A stretch of 64,000 nucleotides of DNA from Squalus acanthias (taxonomy: Eukaryota), in contig CM059432.1 in the NCBI GenBank assembly GCA_030390025.1, positions 14,386,001-14,450,000 on the forward strand. The letters are read 5' to 3'. The translations under genes were made by a program, and so were the position numbers. Of the stretch, positions 10,101 to 63,465 are shown piece after piece; the stretch's first letter is position 1; the number at the start of each line of letters is the position of its first letter. Under the pieces are notes generated by a model, which worked only from the letters and a program-made list of their open reading frames with translations, did not search any database and was not told the origin of the DNA.

Positions 10101-10838
10101 CCGTGAGGATATTGGTCCTGGTCCTGTTGAGGTGCAACCCATCCGGCTTGTCGAGGTCCCACCTCCCCCAGAAACGGTCCCAATCCCTCAGGAATCTAAA
10201 GCCCTCCCTCCTGCACCATCTCTCCAGCCACGCATTCATCTGCTCTATCCTCCTATTTCTATACGCGCTAGCACGTGGCACCTGGAGTAATCCGGAGATT
10301 ACTACCTTTGAGGTCCTACTTTTTAATCTCCTTCCTAGTTCCCTAAACTCTGCCTGCAGGACCTCATCTCTCTTTCTACCTATGTCGTTGGTACCAATAT
10401 GGACCACGACCTTTGACTGTTCACCCTCCCCCCTCAGAATGTCCTGCAGCCGCTCAGTGACATCTTTGACCCTTGCACCAGGGAGGCAACATACCATCCT
10501 GGAGTCACGTCTGCAGCCGCAGAAACGCCTGTCTGCTCCCCTAACTATCGAATCCCCTATGACTACTGCTCTTCCACTCTTCTTCCTCACCCCCTGTGCA
10601 GCTGAGCCACCCATGGTGCCGCGGACTTGGCTCTGGCTGCACTCCCCAGAGGAACCTTCGCCCCCACCAGTATTTAGAACTGAAAACCGGTTAGCGAGCG
10701 AGATGCACTCAGGGGATTCCTGCCCTACCTGCCTGGCCCTCCTCCTCTGCCTGGCGGTCACCCATTCCCTCTCTGCCTGCACACTCTTAAGCTGCGGGGT
10801 GACCACCTCCTGAAACGTGCTATCCACGAAGTTCTCAG
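7120..10838 (-). mobile_element. Near-full-length CR1 LINE: SGNH/GDSL-esterase ORF1 plus frameshifted APE-endonuclease/RT ORF2
   Basis: ORF 10063..10872 has VIGDSIVR, PGAR, HIGTNDIG and DGLHLN (SGNH blocks); 9707..9928 YFNARSL..DIIAITETWL and 9136..9321 SDHH (APE); 7632..8483 SGVPQGSVLGP, KFADDTK (RT); 7224..7604 C-terminus. ORF2 is split over several frames. Confidence 0.95.
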
Positions 10839-11978
10839 CTGGAATATAAACAACCAACGAGGTAGAGGTCACTCAGTGCGTCTAATAAACCACTGCATGT
10901 ACTCCCGTGTCCTATACACACCTAACAAGTGCAAACACGAGGGCCGATCTTCCAACTCTGCACTGCTGGCGGGAAAGCTTGCGCACATTACAAACTCGCA
11001 AAATCGGCCTTCTTTTGAAACTACCGTCACAAATGCATTGAGAATAAAAATCTTTTCCACTGGGGCATTTCCCTATGATTGCAGTGTGTGTATGATTGTG
11101 TGGGACACTGTCTTGCTGATAATAAATCGAATGTTCTGGAAGGTCAGAAAGCTTTCAAAACTGGATGCCAGAAACAGAAAAAAAGAAATTTCTAAAAAGT
11201 AGGGTCATGATTACTCGAGTCACCACCCCACGCTGTGGGTGCAACTTGGATAGACTGTTCACATTTCACAAACACAGAGTCAGTGTGGTTAGACCCCACC
11301 CCTGTGACAGGCCCCAGTATCATTACACAGGCTTTCTGCCTTCACTCTGTCTGTTTCTAGTCCATCTGCATTTTTCTTGTTTCTAATTTCACACTTTCCT
11401 ATTTTCTCCCTCCTCCCCCAGGAGAGAGAGAGAGAGAGAAGATACTTCCATAGACACTCAGTGCTCTCCATTGGTTAACCCCTCAGAGGTTGGCTAAGCA
11501 AGAACAAAAGAAACCAGCCATTCGCCTCATCAAACCCACTCCTTCCACAGACCAGGTACAATTCCACGGACTCTACCCCACCCAGTCGCGTTTCTAAAAG
11601 AAAGCTTTGCATAAATACTCACTGATCCTAAAAGTTAGGTGAGCAAAACTCCAGAATAGTCATAAATGCTCACGCCTCCACTGGTCAACCTTGATCTGCT
11701 GTCCTGCACAGACAACATCCTGATCCCTGCAGCACGAGAAGGGATCCCTTTTTGCCTCCTCTACAGTCCTCCTGCTTATTGATGATCAAAGGCAGATTGG
11801 CAAAGCGAGCCCTAAGGGACAATCCCACATGTTAACATCAGGTAACACAGGGATCTGAACCCATGCCTCCTAATTGGGAACCCAGCTCTGCAGGACTGCA
11901 AATTTCTAGGTCACACAAAGTTCTATCCCTTAAAAAGACACAAAAACAGCATTACTAAAAACTAGCGTCTTGAGTTAC

Positions 11979-13900: not shown

Positions 13901-15412
13901 ATTTAACACTCCATTGTGATGGGCTGAGTGAACCGCAGCAGAACGGAAAATGGGCAGAGTCAACTCGCAGGGTGCACACATCCCCGCTGCAGCCCTGCAA
14001 AATAAAACTGTGTGCCATGGTGCACGCCGGGCTACCTAGCCTAAGGACACTGAAGTCAACCGTAGAGCCCCCACCACTTTCCCCGCTGTGGGAAATAACT
14101 CCGCATAAAGCAGGTGTTGGTCCTGGTTTGTTTGGGTCGGTATCCCATTACTTGGCGCACCTATCCACTGAGCTATCAGGGAGTATGCTTCGTTCCGGAT
14201 TACCCATCCCATTCCGTAACACTAACACCCTCACCATCATGAGCACACTCAAGCTGTGTAAACAAGGTTGCCATATTTTGCAGAGTTCAAAATCAAACGG
14301 GGAGGGGGCGGGGGGGAGCAAGGGTTCCGGTGGGAGGAAAGGTAGGAAAGGGGTTAATCATGGCTTTAAATCTGAGGTGAAGCCAATAAAACTCATCAAA
14401 ATCTTGCATAACCCAAATAATTAATTCGGCATTGTCATGTGGAGAAAAAGCTGGACTTTTATTTCGAGGGCCAGATATTTTAGAAATGTCCCAGCCAGCC
14501 AACTCCAAAAACTGGACTGTAACCAGACAAGCGAGAACCCTACTTTGCTTCAGGAAGCAAGCTGTGAAACATCGCTCACACCAGTATTTCAGTCACACAG
14601 CAGGTTTGAAGCTCACGGCCCACACTCTGAAGGTGCAGCTTCCAATATTTTGGGCAAGTAGTACAGAAAAGAGGAAGAGCACTTGCTTCTCCTTCCCTAG
14701 CCCGGTTAGTATGGACGTGCTCGAGCCCAGGGCTGAAGCAGTTGCATGCTTCCCCTTCCCCCCAATCCCTTAGCCCGACTATTACCCAGAGAACTTGTGG
14801 GCCGCAGCGACAAGCACGACATTTTGCACTGTTGAATTTGCCACTGCACCTGATCCACGATGGCCCTGGAACGCCAGAGGGCGAGTCGACTTGATGGCGG
14901 CACTGCCCTAAAATCTACAAGGGTTAGAAATTCTGTTTCTGCGCCCATTAGCTCGCGGTTTTCTCGAGGGGCCAAGTGGCCTACTCCTGCTCCTATTTCT
15001 TATGTTCTCTGCATTAAAGTGAATGAGCAGAAAATCGCACGCTGGCAAGCACAGAAGCAGAATTTGTACTTTTTTTTTTTAAATGGAAGGGTATGGCCTA
15101 CTGTAAAAAGGCACTTTTATAGTAAACAGAGGTTTTTTAATTTAAAAAAAATCTAGAATTCGAATAGTGCTATACCTTAAATAGTCTAGTTATATTTGAA
15201 CTGGTCGCTATAAGCTTTTGAAACTTGTATGTAAATATTCTCTGCTCAGTAGAATCCAACTTCTGATGGCCTGCCTAGTAGTTGCTTTTGTAGCTTTTCC
15301 ATTTTTGTTTGGAGGCTTCACATCAAAATCCATGAGCTGAGTACAGAATGTATTTAGTAGATGTTTTAGTGCAGCTTGGTTTATGCTTAGTGAAGAAGCA
15401 AAGTGTTATTTA

Positions 15413-16813
<1,401 letters not shown>

Positions 16814-18332
16814 TTAGAAAGATTAACAGGTCATTGAGCTCTACAGAAGTCAATGTTAAAGCGTTCATCACGACTAGAAGGACCAGTCACACCACAGTCT
16901 TCCCATAATTTACCCAAGGATTCAGAATGCACAGTTTCGAAGACCGAACGGAACAGTGATATACTTAAGGACCTCAATGCGTGTAAGGACTGATTCTGCG
17001 GCCGGGCACTCTTAGTGCAGATTGACACTCACAGGGAGTGTTGACTGGGAAGTTGCAGGCTCACCGTGCCTGATTTTCCATTGATTTAAACAGAAGGAAA
17101 ATCAGATACTGCGGATTGGCCAGCGCTGACAGTACCACACCACACCTGGAGTGCCTAACTGTGGATTCTAATACACTTTAAAGGCTGGGCATTGCAAGGT
17201 CTTCCTGTGTTGTGCCAAAGACTCGTACTACAACCTTAACAAATGACCGCACACAATTCTTTCAGTCATAGACCCAAGAAGTCAATCTGCACACAGATCA
17301 AATAACTGAACACAGGCAGGTCTTTCTATGTTGTAACCCAAGTACCCAACACATACAGCGCTACGGCCTTTCCAAATTATTCGCTGGGAGACAGATATGT
17401 ACGTTATTTAAAATAAACTTTCTTTTCACTTTTGAGATTTTAATTATCTGAGACCACTGGTATGGATCACTGAACTCTGAAAGAAAGAAAGAATTGCATT
17501 TATATAACGCCTTTCACGACCACAGGATGTTCCAAAGACTTACAGCCAATTCACACTGCATGTACAGGTCAATTCGTGGATGTGGAATGAATCCATTCCC
17601 ATTTGAGGCTTTGATGGCTGGTGCACACTGTACATGCAAAGCTTTGATGTGGACAATTTATATCAATTTTAATTTGAGCACATTCCAATTAGGTCAACTT
17701 TGAAGGGCGATTAAACAGCTGCAGAGTGCATACCAGGCATCTCCCCACGGGAGAGGGAGGGGGGGAAAGGGATGTAAGTCAGAGGCAAATTGCCCTGCAA
17801 CAAGTATTTGCATTTATATAGCACCTTTAACGTAGTGAAACGTCCCAAGGGGCTTCACAGGAGCGGAATCAGACAAAAGGCCCAAGGCCACATTTGTACC
17901 AGGTTAACAGTACCATTAATGGGGACTGAAAGTAATCTAATGAGATGAAAAATAAACCAATGAAGGGCAGCCGTGTGAAACCCATTTTTCTAATGGAAAG
18001 CTGCAATGCCTCACTAAAGGAATTGTTTCATCTTAAAATCAGAACCTAGAAAGAAACTGGAACCGAGCTTTAACAAAAAGTTCATCGCCTCTCCTGGGAA
18101 TGCTGATCCATTCTATGGTACTGTTCCACAGCTGCCGTTCCTCATGTGTAAGGCTGCAGGCTCTTTAACCATGTGGGGCTTCACAGCAGAGCCTGCTCTA
18201 TCGCCATAGCACGTCACACGAGCAGGGGTCACTGGATAGCCAACCTGGGTGATTTTTCTTTTCCTCCCTACCTAGCCCTGGGGTTGAAGCCAAAACAATT
18301 TTTCATTTGACATGCTGGAGGGCAGGAGCCTC

Positions 18333-19438
18333 AACAACAACAACAACATGTATTTATATAGCACCTTTAACGTAGTAAAACGTCCCAAGGCGCTTCACAG
18401 GAGTATTATAAGACAAAAAATTTGACACCGAGCCACATAAGGATAAATTAGGGCAGGTGACCAAAAGCTTGGTCAAAGAGGTAGGTTTTAAGGAGCGTCT
18501 TAAAGGAAGAAAGAGAGGTAGAGAGGCGGAGAGGTTTAGGCAGGGAATTCCAGAGCTGAGGGCCTAGGCAACTGAAGGCACCAAAGGTTGAGCGATTATA
18601 ATCAGGGATGCTCAAGAGGGCAGAATTAGAAGAGCGCAGATATCTCGGGGGGTTGTGGGGCTGAAGGAGATTACAGAGATAGGGAGGGGCGAGGCCATGG
18701 AGGGATTTGAAAACAAGGATGAGAATTTTGAAATCGAGGCGCTGCTTAACCAGGAGCCAATGTAGGTCAGCGAGCACAGGGGTGATGGGCGAACGGGACT
18801 TGGTGCGAGTTAGGACACGGACAGCAGAGTTTTGGATGACCAAGTTTACGTAGGGTGGAATGTGGGAGGCCAGCCAGGAGTGCGTTGGAATAGTCAAGTC
18901 TAGAGGTAACAAAGGAATGGATGAAGGTTTCAGCAGCGGATGAGCTGAGGCAAGGGCGGAGACGGGCGATATCACGGAGGTGGAAGTAGGCAGACTTTGT
19001 TATGCAGCGGATATGTGGTCGGAAGCTCATTTCAGGGTCAAATATGACACCAAGTTTGCGAACAGTGTGGTTCAGCCTCAGACAGATGTTAGGGAGAGGG
19101 ATGGAGTCAATGGCTAGGGAACGGAGTTTGTGGTGGGGACCGAAAACAATGGCTTCGGTCTTCCCAATATTTAATTGGAGAAAATTTTCGCTCATCTAGA
19201 ACTGTACGTCGGACAAGCAGTCTGACAATTTAGAGACCGTGGAGGGGTCGAGAGAGGTGGTAGTGAGGTAGAGCTGGGTGTCATCAGCGTACATGTGGAA
19301 ACTGACGCTGTGTTTTCGGATGATGTCGCCAAGGGGCAAAATGTAGATGAGAAATAGGAGGGGGCGAAGGATAGATCCTTGGGGGGCACCAGAGGTAACG
19401 ATGCGAGAGCGGGAAGAGAAGCCGTTGCAGGTGATGCC
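18333..19438 (-). mobile_element. L2-clade LINE 3' fragment (about 1.1 kb)
   Basis: ORFs with GAPQGSILRPLLF, FHMYADDTQLY, LQLNIGKTE, SRLDYSNALL and HWL..KQRLDFKIL; (gtt)n tail; frameshifted. Confidence 0.92.
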
Positions 19439-20784
19439 TCCATAGAGGGAGAAAGCTGAAATTGTACCGCAAGTCAATCACTCACAGCCCAGTGTCAGGA
19501 CTGATGTTAGCAGAAGCCTGAGAGCAGGTTTTAATGAGGTGGGTCTATCCTTCACTCTGTGTAAGAGAGAACTGAATACTGGATGTCGGGTCAGCACCAG
19601 GCCACTCTTGATGCATCCTGCTGTCATATTGGTGGAGGCCTAGCAACAGGCTCCATTCCTGTCAGACAAGGGAGGTGCACGGCACACGGCAGATCAGTGA
19701 GAGGAATGTGTCAGGAGGATAATTCTTCTGTGAAAAACATTTGAGCATCACCACTCCAAAACCATTAATTTTTAAGTTCAGCCTGAAAGGTGACTGAAGT
19801 TACAAGTTGCTAAATTGGTCCGCATGGACTGCTTTACTTTGGAAGGAGTGACTAGGGAATTGAGAAATATCACTACCACCGACTTCTATGCTAATTGGTG
19901 AGATTCGACAAATTCATGGCTGTTTAAACATCATCAAGTTGAATAAGAGAACATGACGCAGGGTAAGAGGTGCTGGAATCCTGCTCAGATTGTTGGAGAC
20001 ACTTACCCATCAAATATTTTTACTGTCTCAAAAATGAGACACCAGCACCACTGTAGCATTACACAGCCATTGAGTTAGGCAGGTTTCTGGTCCCAATTAC
20101 ATATGAAAAAAATACACGCAATATAACATTACATTACATTTAAAGAGAAAAATCTAACTCTGCCTGACCTCTGAGCAGGAGATGCTGACACCGGAGCGGG
20201 GGTGGGGGGGGGGCAGCGGGGGAATAGAGGGAATTTTAATCCACTGCGCCCAACGGGAACGGGATGGCTGAGCAGTTAAAATCGCTTCCGAGAACTTATT
20301 CCCACCCGCTGCCGCTTTCACTGGTTCCTTTTCTTTAGGTGGACAAGGCGCCTACCTGACTCAGGTGGAACCTCATCAACACAGGCTAATCGGGGTCGCC
20401 GACCTATGTCCTTTCACCTAAAGAACAGCAGAAGGGCGCAGGAAACAAGCACTTTCCCAATTACTTATCTGCTTCATGACAGTCTTTGTGCCTTTAATAA
20501 TAATTGAAAAAAAAAACACATATTTACCTCATTAAAATTAATCGACGTCTGGGGCAAGTCCCTACTAAATTAATTTGGTGACGTAATTATGACGCTATCT
20601 ATTACAGGGATGTTAGTGTGAAGCTTTCCTGCCTAATCCACTAAAATGATGCTGAGATTCAGCTGTCTCATACTTCTTAATGTTCTCACAGCTGTTTCCC
20701 ATCATGACTTTAGGGAGCACAGAGTGAGACTTGTCTCCACATAGTAGCTGTAATCACCACAATGTCACCAATTGGCAGCAGGCG

Positions 20785-21470
20785 CTCACTTCTAATATTA
20801 AATACTACAGCTCCCGGGGCGCGAGTGCGGCGTGTGGTGGAGAGTCGGGAAGTGCCCATGACGGTACCCGCGTGAGCCAAGGGCTGTTTTAACTCCCGTG
20901 GCATCGTTTCCGTGTTTGAGGATGGACTCCTGGCAGGAATCACAAGGTAGGTGGTGGGCGGGCGGGCAAGAGCGGGGCTTCGCGCGGCCCGGAAACCGCC
21001 CGCCATGACTCAATCGAACGGTCCCCGTCACTAAGCACACCTGCTCCTCCTGACCCACGAGGAAACCGTACAAAAAATAATATTCTAAATTCAAACTTAC
21101 TCGGGGCCTCTTCTGGCCCCGATCCTGCCTGCCGCCAAGTTTCCCCGTGAGCGACTCGCGTAACCCTGGGGTTAAGATCGAGCTGGGCTCCTAATGATGC
21201 CATTGAACCCTGACCATTACAGTTTTAATAAAGCCACGCTACTGCTTGCTGCCAGGTTTCCCTAGCGGGTTGAGCACTGCGCGCGACTTGGGGTCCAAAT
21301 TACATCATCAGACCGCAACCTTTGCAGTTTAATGAGCTCCCACCTCCCCCCCCCCCGCCCGCTTGTGCCAGGCGCCTCTCCCGAAACCAAAATCAGCGCT
21401 GTTAAAATGGTGATGGCGCGAATGTGTCGAGAGCAAGTGCCTGACTCGACGGGCAGGGTTAAAATTGGTC
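20785..21470. mobile_element. GC/CpG-rich non-autonomous DNA-transposon (MITE-like) copy
   Basis: Shares ggcctcttctggcccc and cctgctcctcc..cccacgaggaaa with elements at 47.0, 48.0-48.5 and 49.9-50.6 kb; ends gttaaaattggtcc. Confidence 0.55.
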
Positions 21471-22789
21471 CTCATACATTTTATACGGTGCATATTTATA
21501 ATTGTTTATGTATACTGATACAGACTTGCCCCTTTCATGACCTCAGGACGTCCCAAAGTGCTTTACAGCCAACTTTTGAAGTGCAGTCACTGTTGTAATT
21601 TCGTGCTAAAGGCAAAAGACAAACTATAAAGGGACATGCATGTGGGAAAGTAATTATTCCTTAAGGTTTTTTATCCCCTATAAGATGGCTTCAGACCCAG
21701 GGTGACGCAATCGCCACACGGCTGTACTTTTCCTGGCGATTTTCTACCTTGAAGGTGTCAGCTCCTTGTTGGAATATGATTCCATGGGGTACTCATCGCC
21801 CAAGCAGCTAATCCTCACGTGTGCGCTAAGATGGCGAGTGTCAGTGCACAGCCTACGTTTGTCTTCACTCAATGTCCACACATGTACTATTCCAGCTGAG
21901 GTTAATGTGGCAATCGGGAGTGAGATTCTCCTCATTTTTCCCCTTCCTAATCAGGGACAGTGAGTCCAGCTATAGTGCGCTCACCTACATGTGGCTGAGA
22001 TCAGGCTGCTCGGTGCAGACTCGGGGTCAAACCTGAGACGTTCCTGGACTGTATGACTCAGCCTTAAATAGTTGAGCCATCAGGTAGCCAACAACAAATC
22101 AACAATCATCCTTCCAATTTATAGATAAATATGTAAACGTCTACATTTGGTTATTAGTCAAAAATAATTCCCAATAATTTAATTATTGTGTTACTATTTC
22201 AGAATGTTCCTCGAGCCAAAAATACTCTGCCTTTACAGTGGAAGCCACAATGATTTGCACTCCCATCATCTGCGACAATTTTTTGCCCGTGGATAGGAGC
22301 TCAGTGCGATTGCAGCTGTCGGCATTTTACTTTGTTTCAGAATAGGAGGACCTTTAAAAAAAAAATAAACAGCTCCGCTGATTTTCGAGTAGTCAGTTCT
22401 GCTGAGATCAGCGTGGTGAAGTGCGGCTGACAGGATCACTGGAGGTGAGCACGTGCTCCCTTTAGCCCTCAAATCTCTAGCTGGGGAGTTATGCTTGGCA
22501 TTGGAGAAACATTTCTAGAGTGGGCAGCTGTCATCATAGGCGGATTCGAGTGGAGGAGGCGGGGTGGGGGGGGGGGGGAGCAGTGAGCCAGCAGATCAGC
22601 TGATGGTGAGGATTGAGACGAGCAGGTGGGGCGAGGCAGAGCTTACCAGCAGCGTACAGTAATTTGGGGACTTGCGATTATCCAGTAATTTAAGAATGTA
22701 GGAAAGCCGAGAATGAGAAAAAAGACACGACTCATCAACCACACTCCTTGCAAGGCACCACAAGCTTCAGAACAGACACCTTGTCCTCT

Positions 22790-24288
22790 ACACTAAAGTC
22801 TGGGAACATGAAACTGTGCCACGGGGTTTCAAAGATGCAAACCATGTGCATTTCTACAAGCGTGGGTTGTCACGTCTATCGGTAGCGGGTAAAATTCTCG
22901 CCTCTATCATCCTCTGCCGACCGAACGAACAACTAGTGGAAAATATTTCTTCCAAAAATCCAATATGGTTTCGGACCGGTCGTGGAACATCCAGCATGAT
23001 TGCTTAGCCCGCCAAGTCCAGGAAAAGTGTAGAGACGAGCATCAGGATCTGCGCGTTTTTTTTGTTGACTTGACAAAGGCATCCAATTCGTGATGTACTG
23101 TGGGAGATTCTTCTAAAGTTCTGATGGCCCGGCAGATTCAAGAACATGGTTTGCCAATTACATGGTGACATGATGGTCCGAGTAATAGATCATGGTCACA
23201 TGTCATCACCATTTGCAGTCACTAATACCATCAAACAAAGATGTGTTCTAGCCCCAACCCTCTTTAGCGCACTGTTTGCTGCAGAACTGCTCGAGGGGGG
23301 TTTCAAGAACTGTGGCAGGAATCTATATTTGATAACACTCGCTGTGTAAACTTGCACATGAAGAATGCAGAAAACATGCTCTTTGCCCAGGACTGCATGT
23401 TACTCGCCTACTCTCTTGAGGACATCCTGTTGCTCTCCAGCTGCTTTGCTCGGGCAGCACAGCGCTTTGTCCTTACAACCCAATAAACAAAGACTGTAGT
23501 CATGGTCCAGCTCATACTCCACCAACCAGCCACACCCCCCTGTGGCTTCGATCAATAACTTACCACTTAAGATCACGGACAAATTCTGCTACCTCGGTTG
23601 CTTTCCCTCACAGAATGCCACAATCGGCCAGGGCCAGCTCTGCCATTGGCAGACTCGAGCGGAGACTCTTATAGGAACGAGGGGTTAGCCTGCCGACAAA
23701 AGTCAGTGTAGACCAAGCTGTTGCCCTCACCACCCGACCAGAGGGATCGGAGTCGCGGATCTGCTACTGCCATAACATCAAGCGACCTGACCATTTCCAC
23801 TTGCGAAGTATCACTGGCATCAAGCGGAAGGACAGGTGGCCGAACACTGATGTCCTCAAACGCTGCAATAGAACTGGAATTGAGGCCACGATCAAAAAGG
23901 TACAGTTGCGTTGTTCTGGGCACGTCGCTCGCATGCCTGATTATAGAATTCCCAAAGCCATCTTCTACGGTGATCTGTAATCCGGATATCACAATAGAGG
24001 TGGGCAGATGAAACGCTTTAAAGACACACTAAAGGCCACCGTAAAATCTTGCAACATTAAGCCCAACACCTGTGGTCACGATGGCGTCACGTCTGCCAGG
24101 TCCTTGTGAATGATTTTGAGGTTGCGAGATCCGGTGCCAAGCGCCCAGGACAACCGATCGACCCGCCTCAACGGGCTTTCCATGCAATCGACGCGGCTGT
24201 AACTGTTCGACCAGGACCGGGCTCTTCTCCCATCAGCTCACCCACTACAACTGAGACTCATCCGTTGATCCAACGGGAGACTCCAGCA
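22790..24288 (+). mobile_element. Old, degraded RTE (BovB-like) LINE
   Basis: Fragments FKDA..., SVAGKILASIIL, FRTGRGTSSMI, FVDLTKA and IKQRCVLAPTLFS with many stops and frameshifts. Confidence 0.85.
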
Positions 24289-24290
24289 TC

Positions 24291-25213
24291 TCTTAGACAG
24301 TCCCTCGGAACCGAGGATGACTTGCTTCCACATTAGAAATGAGTTCGCAGGTGACTGATGAGTCCAATGCGGGACCTACAGTCTCTGTCACAGGTGGGGC
24401 AGACGGTGGTTGAAGAGGCGGGTGGGTGGGGTGCTTGGGTTGACGTGCGCTCCTTGTGCTGCTTGCGCTTGGGTTCCGCTTGCTCCCGGCGAAGAGACTC
24501 GAGGTGTTCGGCGCCTTCCCGGATGCTTCGCCTCCACTTTGTGTGGTCTTGGGCCAGGGATTCCCAGGTGTCGGTGGGGATGTTACACTTTTTCAAGGAG
24601 GCTTTGAGGGTGTCCTTGAAGCATTTCCTCTGCCCACCTGGGGCTCTCTTGCCGTGCCGGAGCTCCGAATAGAGCACTTGTTTTGGGAGTCTCGTATCGG
24701 GCATGCGGACAATGTGACCCGTCCATCGGAGCTGATTGAGCGTGGTCAAAGCTTCGATGCCGGGGATGTTGGCCTGAGCAAGAACACCGACGTTGGTGCG
24801 CCTATCCTGCCAATGGATTTGCAGGATCTTGCAGAGGCAGCGTTGGTGGTACCTCTCCAGTGCTTTGAGGTGCCTGCTGTACATGGTCCATGTCTCTGAG
24901 GCATACAGCAGGGCGGGTATCACTGCTGCTCTGTAGACCATGAGCTTAGTGCCGGGTTTGAGGTCCTGGTCTTCAAACACTCTCTTCCTCAGGCGACCGA
25001 AGGCTGCACTGGCACACTGAAGGTGGTGTTGGACTTCGTCGTCAACGTCTGCCCTTGTTGACAGTAGGCTCCCGAGGTATGGAAAGTGGTCCACGTTGTC
25101 CAAGGCCTTGTCGTGGATTTTGATAATCGGGGGGCAGTACTGTGTGGCGGGGGCAGGTTGGTAGAGGACCTTTGTCTTACGGATGTTTAGTGTAAGGCCC
25201 ATGCTCTCGTACA
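24291..25213 (-). mobile_element. Younger RTE (BovB-like) LINE 3' fragment with an open frame of about 290 codons
   Basis: ORF 24333..25235: GLTLNIRKTKV, FPYLGS, LLYASETWT, LRWTGHIVRM, RLPKQVLY and C-terminal CPTCDRDCRSRIGLISHLRTH; short 3' UTR. Confidence 0.93.
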
Positions 25214-26032
25214 TGCATGGAAAAGGTGTATCCAATTAATGACTTCAAACTGAGCGGCAAGAGTAGGACAAGGGGACACTGCTTCAAACTGGTTAACGGC
25301 TCATTTAGCAGTGAGATCAGGAATTGCTTCTTCACGTAAAAAGTGATCAGAATGCACTTTCTGGTAGAGTTGCAGAGGCGAAAACCCTGGAAGTATTTAA
25401 GAAACAACTGGATGACGCAATGTGGGAAGTGTAGGGTCTTTCTGGATGGAGCAAATAAGATGGGCCAGATGGCTTTCCTTCTCCATATTCAGCGTGCGAC
25501 CTTGTAACCAGGGGCTTGCCCTCCCCCACCCAAGATCTCCATACTCTGTTCCTTTTTCTATTATCTACCAGGATACTTCGCTGGCTAAAGTGGTTAAGTG
25601 AATCTCGCAATTGCTGTCATTTGTGTTTGTGAAATATTGCTGTAATTAATTTTCCTGCTGCTGTCGAACAGTTGGGACAATAACTGCTTCCGTCCCTCCC
25701 ATCTCCTCCCTCCCACCCCTCCCCCCCCCGCCCCATTCCCTGATTGATTCACCAGCACTCACCATTCACACAAAAAACATACACGAGGAAGTCATGAATA
25801 AACCTAGGAATAAAAAGGTTAAAATTAAAAATGAGTTTATTTTTTTTAATATACGGCAGAGACTCTTCAAAAAAATGAAGGACTGTTAAATTAAATCATC
25901 ACAGTGACAAGTCAGCCTAATGGCATCTGCACCAAAAGAAGCAGGAATTGAATCAAACACGCATGGTCAAGTGAGCTCATTACTGTGGAGTGGGCCCCCC
26001 CCCACCCCCCGCCCCGAGTGCTCATACATTAC

Positions 26033-26092
26033 CTGAGTAGCACTTTTCTTATCCTTGTAAAGCTCTCGGCTCCCTCTTCTCTTCAAAGAGCT
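26033..26092 (-). CDS. MTCL1: MTCL1 short coding exon (20 codons, SSLKRRGSRELYKDKKSATQ)
   Basis: ttacag acceptor, CAG|gtaatg donor, 60 nt, phase 0/0; splices in frame to the EDSADLK exon; matches remembered SSLKRRSTREMYKEKK. Confidence 0.9.
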
Positions 26093-27920
26093 CTGTAATA
26101 CACAAAAGCCAAAGTGCTATTGTGAAAAAAAGATAAGAGATAACATAACAATGGGAGGGAAAAGTCAAAATCATCACTCACTTCTAAAAAGGTTTAAAAT
26201 AAACAGCTTAGCACCTCAGTTAAAATGGTCGGCAAGTGTCAGAGGAACATGTTAAGTGTTTGCACGCTAACAGTCATTTTTAGATTTGTATAATAATTGT
26301 ACCGGTGAACAATGACACGACACTCTTTTCAGCAGCACTGCAGCTTTTATACAACAATTGTAAACATTCTTCGTTCTGTAATGCTTTGAGCGCTGAAACC
26401 CATTCCAGCAAAATAACCTTCCTGACATGTCTGTCGAATGGTTTTCATCTCAGTTCTACAGCCTGACTAGTCGTCAGCTTTATCTGGGTGCAGATGGACG
26501 CCTGCTGCCCTCAGGCAGGTTATCGATGGAAGCTGATACCGTTCAGATGACCTTTGTCTTAAGACTCCATTCCTTTTTAAAAGCCACCATTAATCACAGT
26601 CCTCCTCTGCTTTTAACAGCTAACTCTTTAACGCATTAGCTCCCACTGTGTTAACCGATTTTTCTTCTTCCTTTTTTGGCACAGAATTACTGCGTAGCGG
26701 GTTCAGGTGCATCGTGCTAAACCAGCAGGCTGGTGGAAGCACCATACATTTACAGGTAGATTTTCCTGTTATTCAGCTTGGAGGCATTGGATCACCTGGG
26801 AGTTGTTCACTGAGGAAAAGTGGATGGGGTGGAATGTTTGATTTACCGTCCATTTAAAGTTAATTGGGCAGGCAATGCTATGCAATTACATTGCTGCTCA
26901 CTTGATATTCCTCAATGCCCTGTATCTCAGTGATCCAATACACACAAGTGCAATAACAGGAAAATCTTTTAAAAGTTTTGAAATAGCACGTTTATTTAAC
27001 TTTCGTATTTTTTTTTTAAAAAACCACAAATTAAATTGTGACATTCTGAAAGGATTTGATTTTTAGCTTTTTCCACCAATATTTCTCTCCTCCCCCTTGG
27101 AGGATGCAGACTCCTTTCAACTCCCGATCGCCATTCTTCACCCGAGACTGTTAACGGTGGCGGGCTATTTAATTACGGCGTGCATCACAACCAAGCCCAA
27201 ATGTGGCCTCATCTGAGGGCCTTAGACATGCACTTTTCAGGAGCGTTCACCTGATACCACCTGATACTTGTTGGGAGTTATCTGCAGAACCTTCATCCAT
27301 TTGGCACATTTCCATTTCAAGTCAGCATAAAGGCCGAGAATTTCGTCCGCTATCCTGCCCCAAATCAGGTGGGATAACGGTGGAGAAAAGCTGGGAAAAT
27401 CGACAATAGTTCCTGATGTAAGAAAACTACTAGGCACTTGGTCTGAGCGTTAAACAAAGATTTAATCAACTGTTTTACAACATGGAGGTCTAGTTGTGTC
27501 CTTCACTAGTTCCTGTTAAAGAATGTCCTGAGCAAGCTGGGCCCATGCCCGAGTATTTATACTCTCCCTGGACAGCGCCACCAGCAGGCCGCCCAGTATT
27601 ATGTCATAAGTCATGAATGACAAGATTCATGTCAGTTCCTCTCTGGGGGTAAGGCAGGGGAACTCAGTCAAAATCAACTAACTCAGCACAAACAAGGCAT
27701 CCAAACAGGGAGCCTTCCTGGTTGATAGGCTCAGCTACTTGTTGGTTTACCCAGCTGAGCCATTGGGGGAGTTTTTCCACTATAACGAGACAGATTTTCC
27801 TGCTAATTTTGGGCTGGATTTTCCATTTCCTGCCTCTACAGGGTCGGACGGGTCATCTTTCTGGCGCCTCGACCCCGCCATGACCTCAGGCCATTTTCTT
27901 GGGTATTGGGACATTATATA

Positions 27921-33025: not shown

Positions 33026-34033
33026 CGGGGGGGGGGGTCTACCTTACAGAGAAGGGTGTATTACATAGAGAGGAGTTTTACAGTGGAAATACATTGCACA
33101 GAGAGACATTTTATATGCTTTACAAACTGGTGTGCAGAGAGGGGTGCATTCAGAAGTGCATTCAGAAGTGTCTCTGTTAATGAGGGAACTGTTTTAAAAA
33201 AATGCATCGTACACAAGGTTATGGTGTATCAGAGTGTGGTGTACTGAGGAGACTACAGTACTGAAACTTCAGACAGGGTTGATTAATCTTCAGCGAAGAA
33301 CATGAAAAAGCCTTTTGTAAAACTTAAGGGTATGATACTGGAGTCACAAACTAGCTTGTAGCTCACATTCTCTGCATTGCTGTAACCCTACTCTTCACAG
33401 TGGTTGAACTGGCTGCATATGTTATACGTTTTGAAGATGCCACTGAACTACTGAGCATATGATGCTCAGTTAAACTGTCAGATACTGCAAGGCAACCCAG
33501 CCTGGGGCAAGTACTATAAAGTAGCTATCTCCTGCTGAGGTAACTTCACCTCCTGATGGCTCGAGTCCAGCAAATAGCCAGTGTTGGTAATCCAAGAGCC
33601 CATGTCGCTCTCAAGTTTCCAGCCAGCTGCATGGATGCATGGAGACAAGCAGCTAAAAATACTGGGGAACGAACAAAAAGAAAGCAATTGGACAAAGCCC
33701 AGGAGATATGGGGCCCCTTCCTAAAGACCAGCCTCCTACTGACCCCAAGCACCTCAGCCACCAGCCCCTCTGAGCAGTAACGAGCTGGGCCCAGTATCGA
33801 GCAACTCTACTCCAGTATACAGTTATTTAGTATTTTACATGACCTCAATGTATGTAACCGTGTAATTCGTAACATAGCATGTACTCTATCAAACCATCAC
33901 CTGAGACAACGTTTTGCTGTCGGCAAGGAGATATGCCCACTGGGAACACACGCTCGAAATTTAGGCGTGCAAAATTCCGGTTGGGAAATTGTGCACAGCA
34001 CTTCCCCAAATTTCTAACGTACATTCCTGATGC

Positions 34034-34598
34034 CAAGTCTCTCCGCCAACGTTGCAAGGTCGGAAAGTGACCGCAAGTCTCCCTGCCAACGTCGCAAGGT
34101 CGGAAAGTGACCGCAAGTCTCTCCGCCAACATTGCAAGGTCGGAAAGTGACCGCAAGTCTCCCCGCCAACATTGCAAGGTCGGAAAGTGACCGCAAGTCT
34201 CTCCGCCAACATTGCAAGGTCGGAAAGTGACCGCAAGTCTCCCCGCCAACATTGCAAGGTCGGAAAGTGACCGCAAGTCTCCCCACCAACAGTGCAAGGT
34301 TGGAAAGTGACACCAGGTCTCCCCACCAACAGTGCAAGGTTGGAAAGTGACACCAGGTCTCCCACGCCAACAGTGCAAGGTCGGAAAGTGACACCAGGTC
34401 TCCCCACCAACAGTGTAATGTCAGAAAGTGACCGCAAGTCTCCCCGTCAACATTGCAAGGTCGGAAAGTGACCGCAAGTCTCCCCGCCAACATTGCAAGG
34501 TCGGAAAGTGACCGCAAGTCTCCCCACCAACATTGCAAGTTCGAAAAGTGACACCAGGTCTCCCCCCCCAACAGTGTAATGTCGGAAAGTGACCGCAA
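34034..34598. repeat. Minisatellite, 40-bp unit, about 14 copies
   Basis: Unit caagtctccccgccaacattgcaaggtcggaaagtgaccg in direct tandem, with two subtypes. Confidence 0.95.
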
Positions 34599-35624
34599 GG
34601 TGTAAACTTCTTGTAAAAATAAAGGAAAGGGATAATGTTAATCTATTAAAGGCTGCACTGACCTGAGACAATGAATCGCCTTCAACTGCATACACTTTTG
34701 AGGTATGTGTGAGCTGCCAATTTGTTTTTCGCATTAGTATCCACGTGAAAGTTGGCAGCTAGCGAAGTGTCCTGATCAGTGGGTTTCAAAAACACAACTG
34801 ACGTTTCAAGGATATTAAACCCCTTTCATCCCTGAGGTAATTTAAAAAAAAAATTAAAATCAAAAAAATAATAAAAATCTAGTTTGGTATTTTGTTGGTA
34901 CATTCTGATGGAATTTGTTTTGGTCTCATTCCGAAGTGGCCTCAAATTGGTTTCAGTGTCAATAAGCCGCACAGACTGACACAGCACAGCAAACACGCTG
35001 AGCAGGGTCTGATCATCACTGAGAAAGATTCACATTTGTCCTGGGTAACAATGACGTGACAAAGAGTATACTGGGAATTTTGGGTCCAGTTTCTTAAAGT
35101 TTCTGGGACCAATGATGGGACCAACTGGATGGCTTTTCGAAAGAGTCGCCGCAGACTCGGTGGGCCGAATGGTCTGCTTCTGTGCTGTACTACTCTATGA
35201 TTCTATGTTATTAATAATTTAAAACAAGAACAAATTATTTCTTCCGGACCCAAAATGGCTCCCACAGATATTATCCGAAGCACAGGGTTAGCTAACCTGG
35301 GTTTAGTAAGCTGCAAGGAAGTTGTGCGAGGGGAGTTGCATTCTTTTGTAAGATTACATTCTTTTAAATGATGTTCTCATCGCTATCTCAATTATGGTGA
35401 AGCATCCCATGGTCTAATAGCCCTCAGTTCAAGTACCTTCCTTCCAGTGAGAATCTTCGGTCTCTGTCCCCTTGTTCTCCATTCTCCCAACAGTGTTTAT
35501 TCACAGTAAAGTCCCCAGGTTTCATTCACACTTCACTGGATGCTCCTCTCACTGCGCTGCTCCCACTCATCACGTTGCTGCTGCTACTCCCGGTTCTGCA
35601 GAAAATGCTGGCCCCTACGCCAAC

Positions 35625-41551: not shown

Positions 41552-42523
41552 CGAACACCTCGGGCTGGATTTTCAATGACCCATGGAGTCGGGTTTGGAG
41601 GCGTGTGGGGGGTTAAAGTTGCAGATTCGGGGGTCCCGACCCCATCCCGCCTCCACGCAATTTTGATAAAATTGTGTGCGGTGTTCCCGACTCCGTCCCG
41701 CCTCCAAGAGGCAGGAGAGGCCATTAAAGCCCTTAACAAGCCCTAAATTGGCTCTGTAATGCCATTTTGAAACATTTTAGCTAGTTTAACCCTTTTCCGA
41801 CGTGAAGCACGCCTGATGTGAAACACGCCAGTGAAACCTGGCGGGAGCACAAGTGGATAGCTGACTATCAGCTGCAAGTCCACTATTACAACGGAGATGT
41901 GATGAAGGTAGCAGTAGTATTAGGTCTGAAAGTCGCCTCTGATGCTGCTGCATTGAATGTCTTCAGAGACTGCCTGGCCTTTGCTGTGAGAGGACCTGGA
42001 TGCAAAAAAAATTCTCTCTCTCTCTCTCTCTCCTTAGAGCTGCTGCTCATTTTGCATCCAGGTCCTCTCACAGCAAAAGCCAGGCAGTCTCTGACCTGAC
42101 CTGCAATGCTGCAGCAATGATGACATCATCAGAGGCGACTTTCAGACTGAAACCACTAATTAGTTCATGGGTTCCCACATGCTGGAACTCAATTGCCCAA
42201 TTAAGTGAAAATAGCATCAATCTCCCACATCCAAATGCAGTCGGGTGGATAACACGAAATGCGGATGACACGACCCCAACTCGCCCCAGTATCAAAATCC
42301 AGCCCCTCGAGTCTCTTCGCCGGGAGCAAGCAGAAGCAAAGCGCAAACAGCGGGAGCAGCGCACGACAACCCAAGCACCCCACCCACCCACCCCTTCAAC
42401 CACCGTCTGCCCCACCTGTGACAGAGACTGTAGATCCCACATTGGACTCATCAGTCACCTGAGAACTCATTTTTAGTGTGGAAGCAAGTCATCCTCGGTT
42501 CCGAGGGGCTGCCTAAGAAGAAG
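41552..42523 (+). mobile_element. Short RTE 3' end (13-bp TSD) split by a MITE
   Basis: aaaaacgatgtgc at 41539-41551 and 42524-42536; RTE sequence ccgaacacctc|gagtctcttcgccggg matches the uninterrupted copy near 24485-24515; aagaag tail. Confidence 0.88.
41562..42305. mobile_element. MITE, PIF/Harbinger-like, 12-bp TIR, 3-bp TSD, large internal hairpin
   Basis: TIRs gggctggatttt / aaaatccagccc; CTC duplicated at 41559-41561 and 42306-42308. Confidence 0.85.
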
Positions 42524-48468: not shown

Positions 48469-48750
48469 TTTAGTGAAAGCCGGTAAGGAGGTACAAGTGC
48501 ATTTAATGGATGAATATGGCTAAACCCTATAATCACTGTGAGTTTAGAGTCATCAATGTATTTAATATTGGTTGTGTAGTGTTTTGCATCTTTGTTGTTT
48601 TAAAGGGAAGTGTAAAATACAAATAGCAACTAGGGGGTGCACGAACAGAGAGACCTGGGGTATGTGTGCACAAATCGTTGAAGGTGGCAGGGCAGGTTGA
48701 GAAAGCAGTTAAAAAGGCTTACGGGATCCTGGGCTTCATAAATAGAAGCC

Positions 48751-48955
48751 ATGATGTGGAGATGCTGGTGTTGGACTGGGGTGGACAAATGTGAGAAGTC
48801 GCACAACACCAGGTTATAGTCCAACAGCTTTATTTGAAATCACAAGCTTTCGGAGCGCTGCTCCTTCGTCAGGTGACGAAGGAGCAGCGCTCCGAAAGCT
48901 TGTGATTTCAAATAAAGCTGTTGGACTATAACCTGGTGTTGTGCGACTTCTCACA
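48751..48955 (-). mobile_element. Penelope-like hairpin insertion (family A) with TSD
   Basis: 84-bp perfect inverted arms 48788-48871 / 48874-48957, an unpaired tail of about 37 nt (48751-48787), and ttcataaataga duplicated at 48735-48746 and 48956-48967. Confidence 0.85.
48840..48876 (-). ncRNA. Minimal type-I hammerhead ribozyme motif
   Basis: Minus strand UCAC-CUGACGA-A-GGAGC-AGC-GCUCC-GAAA-GC-UU-GUGA: both core boxes, stem I, stem II and palindromic AAGCUU stem III. Confidence 0.7.
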
Positions 48956-49924
48956 TTCATAAATAGAGGTACAGAGTACAAAAGTGTGGAAATTATGATG
49001 AACCTGTATAAAACACTGGTTTGGCTCCAACTGGAGTATTGTGTCCAATTCTGGGCACCACACTTTAGGAAGGATGTGAAGGCCTTAGAGAGGGTGCAGA
49101 AAAGACTTACGAGAACGATTCCGGGAATGAGGGGCTTCAGTTATGTTGATAGACTGGAGAAGCTGGGGTTGTTCTCCTTGGAGCAGAGAAGATTGAGAGG
49201 AGATTTGATAGAGGTGTTCAAAATCATGAGGGATCTGGACAGAGTAGATAGAGGGAAACTGTTCCCATTGGCAGAAGGGTCGAGAACCAGAGGACACAGA
49301 TTTAAGGTGATTGGCAAAAGAACCAAAGGCGACGTAAGAAAAAACTTTTTTACGCAGCGAGTGGTTAAGATCTGGAATCCCAAGCCTGAAAGGGTGGTGG
49401 AGGCAGATTCAATCTTGGTTTCAAAGGGGAGTTGGATAAGTATCTGAAGGAAAGAAAGTTTCAGGGCTATGGGGAAAGGGCGGGGGAGTGGGACTAGCTG
49501 AAGTGCTCTTGCAGAGAGCCGGCACGGGCTCGAGGGGCCAAATGGCCTTCTTCCGTGCTGTAACCATTCTATAATTCTATGAACTCAAAATTCCAGAGCA
49601 GATAAAGTTAAAGGGAGATCTAACAAAAGTTTTCAAAATTTTGAGAGGGTTTGAGTGTAAATAGTGAAAAGATTATTTCCACTGATCAGTAAATCAGTAA
49701 CAAGGGGGCATAAATTTAAGATTAGTACTAGAAGCATAAAAAGGGAGGTTAGAAAGAATTTTTCACGCAAGAGGTTATTAAAATAAGTCTATTAAAACTC
49801 ACTCAATCAGGACATTTAAGAAGGAATTAAATAAACAATTGAAGAGAAATTTTGAACGGTATGGGCAACAAGTAGGAAATTAGAGCAGATAGCTCCGATG
49901 TGGAATTAGCAGCACAGTCACAAT

Positions 49925-56884: not shown

Positions 56885-58029
56885 TTTGGGTTTAATGCGC
56901 AGTTTTGGAAGGAAGAAATAAAATACAAATAAGTAAGAAATTTACAACTGTCTCCACAGAGTATAACGATAAAAAGAGTTGATCTATCGTTAGCTGCATC
57001 CCCAGCAGCTCCGCCCTCGTGGAACAGTGTACGACAGTGGCCACTGAAGGTATGCTCAATCTCAGTGCTGCCTATCTCCACTCAGAGAGGTCGAAGATCT
57101 CGCTGTGCTGAACAGGGAAAACTATATTCTGTACTGCACCAGAATCGCAAAAAGGCAACATTGATGCGTTCGGGTTTTATTAAATATAACCCTGATTTCA
57201 GAATTCACACTTCACCGATTAACCATCAGGTGTAACGGTAAAATCAGATGGTTTGATCATTGAAGCAGTCCACGCTAATTTTCAGAGTAGCTACATATTT
57301 GTATTTCTTTTTACAGGGTAAGGGAAGGTGAATTTTTGCACTCAAAGAGGCAAGGTATGTTCCCAGGGTCCCGGGCTGCGGTCTTCAGTCGGCAAATTCC
57401 CGCTCCCTCCCGCCAGCCAGGTAGCGAATCTGGTTGGGTGGGACTCCGGGAACTTTTATTGAACTGAGGCCCTGTGCCTCCCTTTTAAAATCGCTGCCCG
57501 AGTGTCCACACTTCCACAGATTTACGTTGCAGTCATATCTCAGCTAATTCAAATGAGATTTTCTTCCTCTTTTTTCGAGTGTAAAGAGGAAAGAATTTAT
57601 GTGGCCACATATGGTGCTGATGCTCAGAAGGCATTCTGAAGGCAGCTGGACAACATAAGTGCGAGCTAAAAAATAGGTAAAGCCTTAAAAAGGAAATACA
57701 TTCTCCTGAACGGCCCCGTAAGCATTAATGTAATAAAGGGAGATGTGTGGCTACTTTTTGGCCTCTGTCGGACAATATTTGTCGCTCTGGTTATACTTTA
57801 GACCTGCTGGTTAGAAGTAGCTGCCATTTTGTGTAGAATCGTTCCCATGGCATCAGAAATTCCCAACTTGGCATTAAGAAAGGGGAAAATCCACTGCCCT
57901 GTTCATGGTGCCAAACGAGAAGAAGCTCTGCACAACATATGTCTCTGACCCCCTGCAGTTTCAAAGCATAAAACAGATGAATGAGGAAAAAAACTTACAT
58001 TTATATAATAAAAATGCTTACATTTATAT

Positions 58030-58300
58030 GAGAAGTCGCACAACACCAGGTTATAGTCCAACAGCTTTATTTGAAATCACAAGCTTTCGGAGCGCTGCTC
58101 CTTCGTCAGGTGAAGTGAAGAAATACATATGGGCACAGCATATATAGTCAGAGAACAATGCCAGACGACTACAGTTAATCTTTCTAACTGCCCTTTATCA
58201 CACCTCGGCAGAGAGACAATCACGGCAATCAAAGGTGTGGATGGTGTCCAACCAGGTCACATTTATATGGAGCCTGATCGTGTCACCAGAATGTCTCAAA
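58030..58300 (-). mobile_element. Penelope-like fragment (family A), single arm with an intact hammerhead motif at 58077-58113
   Basis: Matches the left arm of the 48.8-kb hairpin, then continues into about 190 nt not present in the hairpin copies. Confidence 0.75.
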
Positions 58301-62352: not shown

Positions 62353-62864
62353 GGCTAACCTAGAGATTGCTAGTTTAATGTCAAATGCTGGATTGTTTTG
62401 TTGTGGGTCTGTGCCCACTAGGAATTGTCTGAGACTGCGCAAACTCACTTCATGTACCATCTTTGCAGCCTACAGAGAAACAATATAAAAGACACCTAGA
62501 TTACAATTATTGATCTGCAGACAAGGCCAACATTTTAAACTTCAGAGGATTCAGGGGGGATAGAGCCAGTCCCGCTGCAGAATAAGCAGCGACCTACTTC
62601 CGTGCAGCAAGTCCTCTGACAGAGCTCCAGATTTCATTAGTCCTCTGAGAAATTAGTATGTTAATAAATATAACACACTCTAATCTTCTATTTTAATTAG
62701 CAAGCCCTGTAAAGACTCATCACTGACCTATTTCTATCAGTCTGCCTGTGTATCACGGTGTCTGCAACAGCAAGAAAGAATTAGCGAAACAAAACCTCCT
62801 GTGGTATTGTAAAATAAAAATCAGGTGCTGGATTTGTCAGTCCTCCGTCATCTATCTATTAAGC

Positions 62865-63066
62865 GAGAAGTCGCACAACACCAGGTTATAGTCCAACAGC
62901 TTTATTTGAAATCACAAGCTTTTGGAGCGCTGCTCCTTCGTTCACCTGACAAAGGAGCAGCGCTCCGAAAGCTTGTGATTTCAAATAAAACTGTTGGACT
63001 ATAACCTGGTGTTGTGCGACTTCTCACTTTTGTCCACCCCAGTCCAACACCGGCATCTCCGCATCA
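62865..63066 (+). mobile_element. Penelope-like hairpin insertion (family A) with 12-bp TSD
   Basis: Near-perfect inverted arms of about 75 bp plus a tail of about 40 nt; tatctattaagc at 62853-62864 and 63067-63078; hammerhead core reads CUGACAA. Confidence 0.85.
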
Positions 63067-63465
63067 TATCTATTAAGCAATTAAAAGTCTTGGATATAGT
63101 TTACACTTGCTGTAAGTGTCATGCCTATATCCTGTAACACTGTCCTTACCACATTTTATCCAACATCCTTTGATGATAACACCCCATTGTTATAAAACAG
63201 CACATCCTCTGACTCACTGTTAGCAATGAATAGTGTATAACATTTAAAGAAAAGCTTTACCTCAGTGAGGGAACTACTCCAATTACACACTCATCAGCAC
63301 TCGCTCAAAGAACAGCCCGTTCAATTAACTGCTGCACCCCCATTCACACGTTCATGGAGCCCTGCCTTTCTCACTTTGTAACGCAGTGAACAAGCAGTGA
63401 AGGCATTGTTCCTGCTGCTTCCCATTACTGTGAAATAAAACCTATAGTGCATCCTCGGTAAAGTC

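What the first reader, a model, noticed from the sequence alone, without database searches (positions are those of the whole stretch)
48735..48967. 205-bp perfect-hairpin mobile element carrying an intact minimal hammerhead ribozyme in the host pre-mRNA sense
Seen: 84-bp perfect inverted arms with a 2-nt loop, an unpaired tail of about 37 nt, and a 12-bp duplication of the host CR1 sequence. The minus strand, which is the MTCL1 transcript strand, reads UCAC-CUGACGA-A-GGAGC-AGC-GCUCC-GAAA-GC-UU-GUGA. Established: Penelope-like elements have inverted truncated pseudo-LTRs, short tails and minimal hammerheads whose palindromic stem III forms in dimers. Inference: a very young non-coding, ribozyme-bearing insertion. 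Its own antisense arm would sequester the ribozyme as long dsRNA, a possible built-in off-switch and an ADAR/Dicer substrate in an intron.
Basis: partly seen in the sequence, partly recalled or inferred. Interest (0 to 1): 0.75.

Follow-up and report, generated by a model that had tools for sequence, protein, structure and literature searches.

The report
Back-to-back Penelope retroelement ends in shark
The hairpin is real, but it is a leftover of a known kind of jumping gene (a Penelope-like retroelement): two short back-to-back copies of its ribozyme-bearing end, laid down in a pattern already described, so it is mostly ordinary.

Summary
Observation confirmed with small corrections. The 84-nt arms are perfect and the 12-bp duplication is real, but the insert is 209 bp and the tail 41 nt. 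The minimal hammerhead motif lies on the minus strand, the strand of a shark MTCL1 gene (intron inferred). Two more copies lie in the window, and contigs of public runs show a very abundant family with variable inversion junctions. Inverted end, one-sided tail, AT-rich duplication and minimal hammerhead are the published signature of endonuclease-positive Penelope-like elements; this scan has noted the pattern on other shark DNA too. The parent RT/GIY-YIG ORF was not seen here. Added here: a third copy shows a TATA box and initiator, and both hairpin tips lie 2-3 nt from that predicted start. Arm ends fall in two clusters matching the two priming sites shown in vitro for an anole element. The best reading is two cDNAs run off the RNA 5' end and joined at a short palindrome. 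The 'off-switch' is a geometric by-product: an unmasked intact copy sits in the same gene, same orientation. Low interest.

The parts
48735..48746 (.). Target-site duplication, left copy (12 bp, 83% AT)
   Evidence: uninterrupted LINE form
48747..48787 (-). 41-nt one-sided 'tail' (AC-rich); ends in ATG-GCT, a possible ORF start (unverified); end is +120 from hammerhead A9
48788..48873 (-). Sense arm: pseudo-LTR segment from just after the predicted transcription start to the tail
48840..48876 (-). Minimal type I hammerhead motif: stem I 4 bp, CUGACGA, extra A, stem II 5 bp with 3-nt loop, GAAA, palindromic AGCU, U17; predicted cut between 48844 and 48843
   Evidence: features as in PMC4209133; cleavage untested; no Rfam match
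48869..48876 (.). Hairpin tip: quasi-palindrome TCA-GG-TGA, 3-nt microhomology joining the two arms; 3 nt downstream of the predicted transcription start
48874..48955 (+). Inverted tail-less arm; its core reads GUGACGA (no C3), so not a ribozyme; ends at +77 (+79 with 2 nt shared with the duplication)
48956..48967 (.). Target-site duplication, right copy
48634..49578 (+). Host LINE 3' fragment interrupted by the insertion (CR1-type label recalled; a related window copy carries an RVT_1 domain)
58031..58258 (-). Family copy 3: non-inverted, tail-less (ends +75), intact hammerhead motif (C3 at 58109), TATA box at 58146 and initiator A at 58116 exactly 30 nt later; 11-bp duplication at 58020 and 58259
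62865..63067 (+). Family copy 2: same tail-plus-hairpin build in the opposite orientation; junction differs by 1 nt; core mutated (G8 to A); ends +116 and +73; 12-bp duplication at 62853 and 63067
15470..26101 (-). Nearest MTCL1 exons downstream on the minus strand (26033-26101 and 15470-16810), fixing host orientation

Best explanation
A dead-on-arrival insertion of an abundant endonuclease-positive Penelope-like retroelement (PLE), made of two short cDNAs of the pseudo-LTR end set head to head. Proposed steps: (1) the element's GIY-YIG endonuclease nicks both strands of an AT-rich site 12 bp apart (duplication shown; enzyme inferred). (2) Each nick primes reverse transcription inside the RNA, at one of two sites about 75 and about 118 nt downstream of the hammerhead; the stretch between them is the tail (ends shown; two-site priming shown in vitro for another PLE; inferred here). 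(3) Priming was on the pseudo-LTR at the 5' end of the RNA, so both cDNAs ran off at the transcription start after about 90 and 130 nt (start site predicted from TATA plus initiator; inferred). (4) The two 3' ends annealed through TCA/TGA and were repaired into a perfect hairpin (microhomology shown; joining inferred). The hammerhead is the ordinary PLE passenger; in host pre-mRNA it is buried in the hairpin and most likely never cuts. The copy has no ORF and no TATA box. Confidence: PLE-derived by-product about 0.9; steps 2-4 in this exact form about 0.45.
For: Anatomy matches the published one: inverted 5'-truncated copy plus 30-40 bp tail at one end (PMC8557442); palindromes at inverted junctions, 8-10 bp duplications, AT-rich targets, TATA 20 bp before TCACT (PMC3846280); minimal hammerhead pairs on opposite strands (PMC4209133). 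Three of three window copies have 11-12 bp duplications of 75-83% AT against 54% for the window. Tail-less ends at +73, +75, +77 and tail ends at +116, +120 from A9; the anole element starts at +111-118 from the same anchor and cuts and extends both strands (PMC11167929). The inverted arms end where the non-inverted copy 3 ends, as expected if each is primed separately. Copy 3 has TATA with an initiator A at +30 (only 6 such pairs for 117 TATAWA sites in the window); the two hairpin tips lie 3 and 2 nt from it. Public contigs continue past the tip as copy 3 does (47 contigs in X1, 79 in X6) and show 8 other arm-to-arm junctions among the 15 joints shown of 197.
Against: Only two hairpins and one plain copy underlie the geometry. 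The transcription start is predicted, not mapped, and the Drosophila virilis Penelope promoter is TATA-less (PMC2377424). The 8 other junctions lie away from the predicted start, so run-off cannot explain all inversions; they rest on 21-26 letters a side, which the tool flags as weak. Rfam did not recognise the motif. Covariation of stems I and II was not shown.
Confidence: 0.85

Rival explanations
1. Same PLE origin, but one cDNA only: its 3' end folds back at TCA/TGA and self-primes second-strand synthesis, which stops about 41 nt short and leaves the tail (cDNA version of the self-priming idea of PMC3846280).
For: Perfectly identical arms; palindrome at the tip in 2 of 2 hairpins; self-priming was proposed in print for such junctions.
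Against: Gives no reason why the inverted arm should stop at +73 and +77, the place where the non-inverted copy 3 ends (+75). The anole protein primes at two sites and extends both strands. Identical arms are also expected from two near-identical young templates.
Confidence: 0.3
2. The hairpin is a non-autonomous element that is transcribed and re-mobilised as a unit (a master hairpin copied by the PLE enzymes).
For: Two of three window copies have almost the same build and tip, differing by 1 nt.
Against: All four ends differ between the two copies; other junctions vary; the copy lacks the TATA box seen in copy 3; an 84-bp duplex would hide the priming sites; in the anole element the protein needs RNA sequence running 172 nt into the ORF, which these copies lack.
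Confidence: 0.07
3. One reading: the antisense arm is a selected off-switch that lets a sense-orientation ribozyme be tolerated in an intron, and feeds ADAR or Dicer.
For: Computed pairing of stems I and II falls to 0.00 in the full insert, and the antisense arm is transcribed first on the host strand. Retrozymes are reported as depleted in introns of Xenopus (bioRxiv 10.64898/2026.07.22.740005).
Against: Copy 3 carries the intact motif unmasked, same strand, 9.2 kb away in the same gene. Copy 2 has the same hairpin with the ribozyme on the other strand, where no switch is needed. Single minimal hammerheads showed no cleavage in vitro; the anole one needs its protein.
Confidence: 0.04
4. A miniature inverted-repeat (foldback) DNA transposon or a microRNA-type hairpin gene.
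For: Long perfect inverted repeat with a duplication; Rfam microRNA models match the hairpin (52.8 bits).
Against: Repeats are not terminal on the tail side; ends vary; the arm continues into a longer element (copy 3); microRNA scores are far below gathering (93 and 80).
Confidence: 0.02

Closest known systems
Complex insertions of canonical EN+ Penelope-like elements (PMC3846280, passages read; PMC8557442, passages read)
   Same: Head-to-head inverted truncated pseudo-LTR, palindrome at the junction, one-sided tail, short duplication at an AT-rich site, TATA about 20 bp before TCACT.
   Different: Here no ORF lies between the repeats: only two pseudo-LTR ends of about 85 and 127 nt. Duplications are 11-12 bp against 8-10 bp in the rotifer.
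Minimal hammerheads of metazoan PLEs (Cervera and De la Pena 2014, PMC4209133; parts 1-2 of 4 read)
   Same: Core CUGANGA/GAAA/UH, extra base between 9 and 10.1, G10.1-C11.1, palindromic 15.2-16.2, 4-bp helix I; pairs on opposite strands were already noted.
   Different: Helix II is 5 bp (7-8 bp in Schistosoma); cleavage site is UU; sharks are not named in the parts read.
Poseidon element of Anolis carolinensis, PAc (Frangieh et al. 2024, PMC11167929; parts 1-3 of 4 read)
   Same: Tail bounded by two internal priming sites in an AC-rich region at a similar distance from the hammerhead (+111-118 against +116/+120 here); AT-rich targets.
   Different: PAc has its ATG inside the hammerhead; here no ATG lies there and a possible one ends the tail. 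Clade of the shark family not determined. The text read does not treat inverted copies.
Non-LTR retrozymes (bioRxiv 10.64898/2026.07.22.740005; parts 1-2 of 5 read)
   Same: Non-coding, PLE-related, type I hammerhead; reported in one cartilaginous fish.
   Different: Retrozymes are head-to-tail tandems with at least two hammerheads; this is head-to-head with one intact motif.

Membership tests
EN+ Penelope-like element | Parent ORF with telomerase-like RT and GIY-YIG endonuclease | not testable with these tools
   No genome held; none in window; 0 hits
EN+ Penelope-like element | Hammerhead motif in the pseudo-LTR | tested here: met
   2 hits in 64 kb, both in this family, 0 in 40 shuffles
EN+ Penelope-like element | Adjacent inverted 5'-truncated copy, palindrome at junction | tested here: met
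   2 of 3 window copies
EN+ Penelope-like element | 30-40 bp tail at one end only | tested here: met
   41 nt here, similar in copy 2, absent in copy 3
EN+ Penelope-like element | Short target-site duplication at AT-rich site | tested here: met
   12, 12 and 11 bp; 75-83% AT against 54%
EN+ Penelope-like element | Partial tandem (direct pseudo-LTRs flanking the ORF) | tested here: inconclusive
   Not in window; one X1 contig joins a tail-less end to a new hammerhead start (48788 to 48876)
Minimal type I hammerhead | Core, extra base after A9, G10.1-C11.1, palindromic 15.2-16.2, short helix I | tested here: met
   against PMC4209133
Minimal type I hammerhead | Covariation in helices I and II among copies | tested here: inconclusive
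   Window copies are identical in the stems; none of 40 substitution rows shown (10 hidden) falls in the motif, 1-nt insertions fall in loop II; conservation, not covariation
Minimal type I hammerhead | Match to a curated Rfam hammerhead model | tested here: not met
   None among 13 hits at E<=10
Minimal type I hammerhead | Self-cleavage (dimer- or protein-assisted) | not testable with these tools
   Needs an in vitro assay
Non-LTR retrozyme | Head-to-tail tandem with two or more complete hammerheads | tested here: not met
   Head-to-head; inverted arm lacks C3
MITE or foldback DNA transposon | Terminal inverted repeats at both fixed ends | tested here: not met
   One-sided tail, variable ends, plain longer copy

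The most novel reading that the evidence does not exclude
The shortest perfect-hairpin copies are in vivo footprints of a complete double-priming event: a PLE enzyme dimer primes two cDNAs from the two nicks at the two tail-bounding sites of the 5' pseudo-LTR, both run off at the transcription start, and they are joined through a palindrome that doubles as stem I plus core of the hammerhead. Hairpin tips would then map the element's start site, and thousands of shark copies would settle how inverted pseudo-LTRs arise, a step left open in PMC3846280 and PMC11167929. I did not find this reading in two searches of the held library (listings only).
Probability: 0.4. Interest if true: 0.45.

Novelty: new member of a known kind. 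Interest (0 to 1): 0.2.

Why it matters
As a locus it matters little: one of very many truncated copies of a known class, and a pattern this scan has already noted in sharks. Its use is mechanistic. How PLEs make inverted ends is unresolved, and these minimal, very young copies give sharp end positions (two priming sites, one run-off point) that can be counted genome-wide to decide between double priming and fold-back. Long perfect intronic hairpins could be editing or small-RNA substrates, but that holds for any inverted repeat and was not shown.

Tried and rejected
Rfam scan at E<=10: no hammerhead model; only sub-threshold microRNA matches caused by the hairpin. No genome held, so no copy count and no parent search. 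Pattern scans of viral (1), metagenome (2) and prokaryote genome (1) collections: 0 hits each, as expected for a shark repeat. PLE-type protein motifs in six frames: 8 regex hits, none credible; Pfam on 8 chosen frames of the 217 listed found only RVT_1 in a LINE. Run search: no RNA holder listed. The one run guessed to be RNA (X15) holds the family as contigs; it shows 7 A>G places against 6 in a DNA run, which cannot test editing. Raw-read run X21 gave only 18 reads; its loose end beyond the tail (3 reads, agreement 0.76) shows an ATG-GCT ten bases further on, too weak to link an ORF. Whether this very site is empty in other individuals or species could not be decided, as the flanks are themselves a repeat. 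Summed contig depth over the element is 0.6-3.8 million against 16 on the unique flank in X1; the tool warns this is no copy number, so I use it only as 'very abundant'. An apparent shared target between copies 1 and 2 was rejected: the duplications differ and share only AT richness. Look-ups of earlier findings by sequence gave nothing. Supplements of PMC11167929: 3 files searched as text, no hits; its figures S1-S2 could not be seen and may bear on start sites and inverted copies. Shark-specific literature searches (listings only) showed no description of this family; Repbase and Dfam were not available.

Full report
Observation. The sequence is as described, with small corrections. Arms 48788-48871 and 48874-48957 are 84 nt and fully complementary, and a 12-nt direct repeat lies at 48735-46 and 48956-67. 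The insert between the repeats is 209 bp and the unpaired tail 41 nt. The hairpin is far beyond chance (z -25.6, 0 of 200 shuffles). With the insert removed, the flanks align without a break to other LINE copies in the window, and contigs of two public runs carry the 221-base skip with 12 ambiguous letters, so the repeat is a target-site duplication. Those contigs may come from other LINE copies, so they do not date this site.

Host context. The frame at 15410-16813 (minus) has SOGA domains and is 97% identical to a shark MTCL1. Five exons map between 26101 and 40, all on the minus strand. The first has a splice acceptor, and residues 1-436 have no credible match in the window. The insertion therefore most likely lies in a long intron whose upstream exon is outside the window; this is inferred.

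The ribozyme motif. The minus strand at 48876-48840 has a 4-bp stem I, CUGACGA, an extra A, a 5-bp stem II closed by G10.1-C11.1, GAAA, palindromic AGCU and U17. These are the features listed for minimal PLE hammerheads (PMC4209133, parts 1-2 of 4 read). My descriptor finds 2 hits in 64 kb, both in this family, and 0 in 40 shuffles. Rfam has no hammerhead match among 13 hits. In one search, none of the 40 substitution rows shown (10 hidden) falls in the motif, while 6 rows fall in the arm and tail beside it, and 1-nt insertions fall in loop II. That is conservation, not covariation. Cleavage is untested; in print single minimal motifs did not cut and dimers cut weakly, and the anole motif cuts only with the element's protein and is not needed for insertion in vitro (PMC11167929).

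It belongs to a family. Two more copies lie in the window. Copy 2 (62865-63067) has the same tail and hairpin in the opposite orientation, a junction that differs by one base, and a mutated core. Copy 3 (58031-58258) is a plain copy without tail or inversion that runs 145 nt further upstream and keeps an intact motif on the host strand. Duplications are 12, 12 and 11 bp and 75-83% AT against 54% for the window. In public contigs the family is very abundant in at least two organisms; loose ends past the tip continue as copy 3 does (47 contigs in X1, 79 in X6), and 8 of the 15 joints shown (of 197) are other arm-to-arm junctions at different places, each resting on only 21-26 letters a side. The arms are thus the end of a longer element and inversion points vary.

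Comparison with print. An inverted 5'-truncated copy and a 30-40 bp tail at one end are given as typical of PLE insertions (PMC8557442, passages). Palindromes at inverted junctions, 8-10 bp duplications, AT-rich targets and a TATA box 20 bp before TCACT are described for rotifer PLEs, with self-priming proposed and the mechanism left open (PMC3846280, passages). Minimal hammerhead pairs on opposite strands were noted in 2014. The anole protein nicks and extends both strands and starts reverse transcription at two internal sites that bound the tail, one at +111-118 (PMC11167929, parts 1-3 of 4). The defining RT plus GIY-YIG ORF could not be linked here, so membership rests on non-coding anatomy.

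Mechanism. Counting from A9 of the hammerhead, which is also where the anole ORF numbering begins (by my reading of the template printed), tail ends are at +116 and +120 and tail-less ends at +73, +75 and +77. The inverted arms end where the plain copy ends, which favours separate priming of each arm over fold-back of one cDNA. Copy 3 has a TATA box at 58146 and an initiator A at 58116, 30 nt later and 7 nt before C3; such pairs occur for 6 of 117 TATAWA sites in the window. The two hairpin tips retain sequence to within 3 and 2 nt of that point. I infer that both cDNAs were primed on the pseudo-LTR at the 5' end of the RNA, ran off at the start site and were joined through TCA-GG-TGA. Against this: three copies only, an unmapped start site, a TATA-less promoter in the fly element (PMC2377424, passages), and many junctions away from the start site.

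The off-switch idea. In the full insert stems I and II have pairing probability 0.00, against 0.39-0.58 in the arm plus tail, so the motif is indeed buried. Nothing suggests selection for this: copy 3 is unmasked in the same gene and orientation, copy 2 has the hairpin where no switch is needed, and a lone minimal motif is not expected to cut. Editing and small RNAs could not be tested.

Earlier notes of this scan (AI notes, unchecked) report the same pattern in other shark windows, and one reports an intact PLE with paired minimal hammerheads in this genome; I could not check that it is the same family. I had reached my reading before seeing them.

Verdict. Real, correctly spotted, and a new member of a known kind. 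The only step beyond print is the geometry linking hairpin tip, predicted start site and two priming sites, which is testable with a whole assembly. Interest 0.2.

Noticed in passing
window 58031-58258: Plain family copy with intact hammerhead motif, TATA box and initiator, on the MTCL1 strand and unmasked; the better candidate if any copy here affects the host transcript.
   Followed up: partly
window 62865-63067: Second hairpin copy; arm differences include CG-to-CA type changes that hit core positions in both arms.
   Followed up: partly
window 41963-42094: Unrelated inverted repeat, 45-nt arms, 98% complementary, around a 42-nt spacer with an A run and a CT run; possibly a small DNA transposon or local inversion.
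   Followed up: no
window 48747-48830 (minus): The AC-rich tail can pair with the GU-rich part of the arm (predicted -20.4 kcal/mol), recalling the AC-rich stem-loop at the anole priming site; no shuffle control run.
   Followed up: partly
joint 48788 to 48876 in run X1: One contig joins a tail-less end to a new copy starting at the hammerhead, a possible head-to-tail mini-tandem in which a ribozyme dimer could form.
   Followed up: no
window 34033-34599: Tandem array of about 80-bp units, 87-90% alike.
   Followed up: no
window 10063-10872 and 7224-8999 (minus): Long, broken LINE copy with an upstream frame (esterase-like ORF1 by recall) and an RVT_1 frame.
   Followed up: partly
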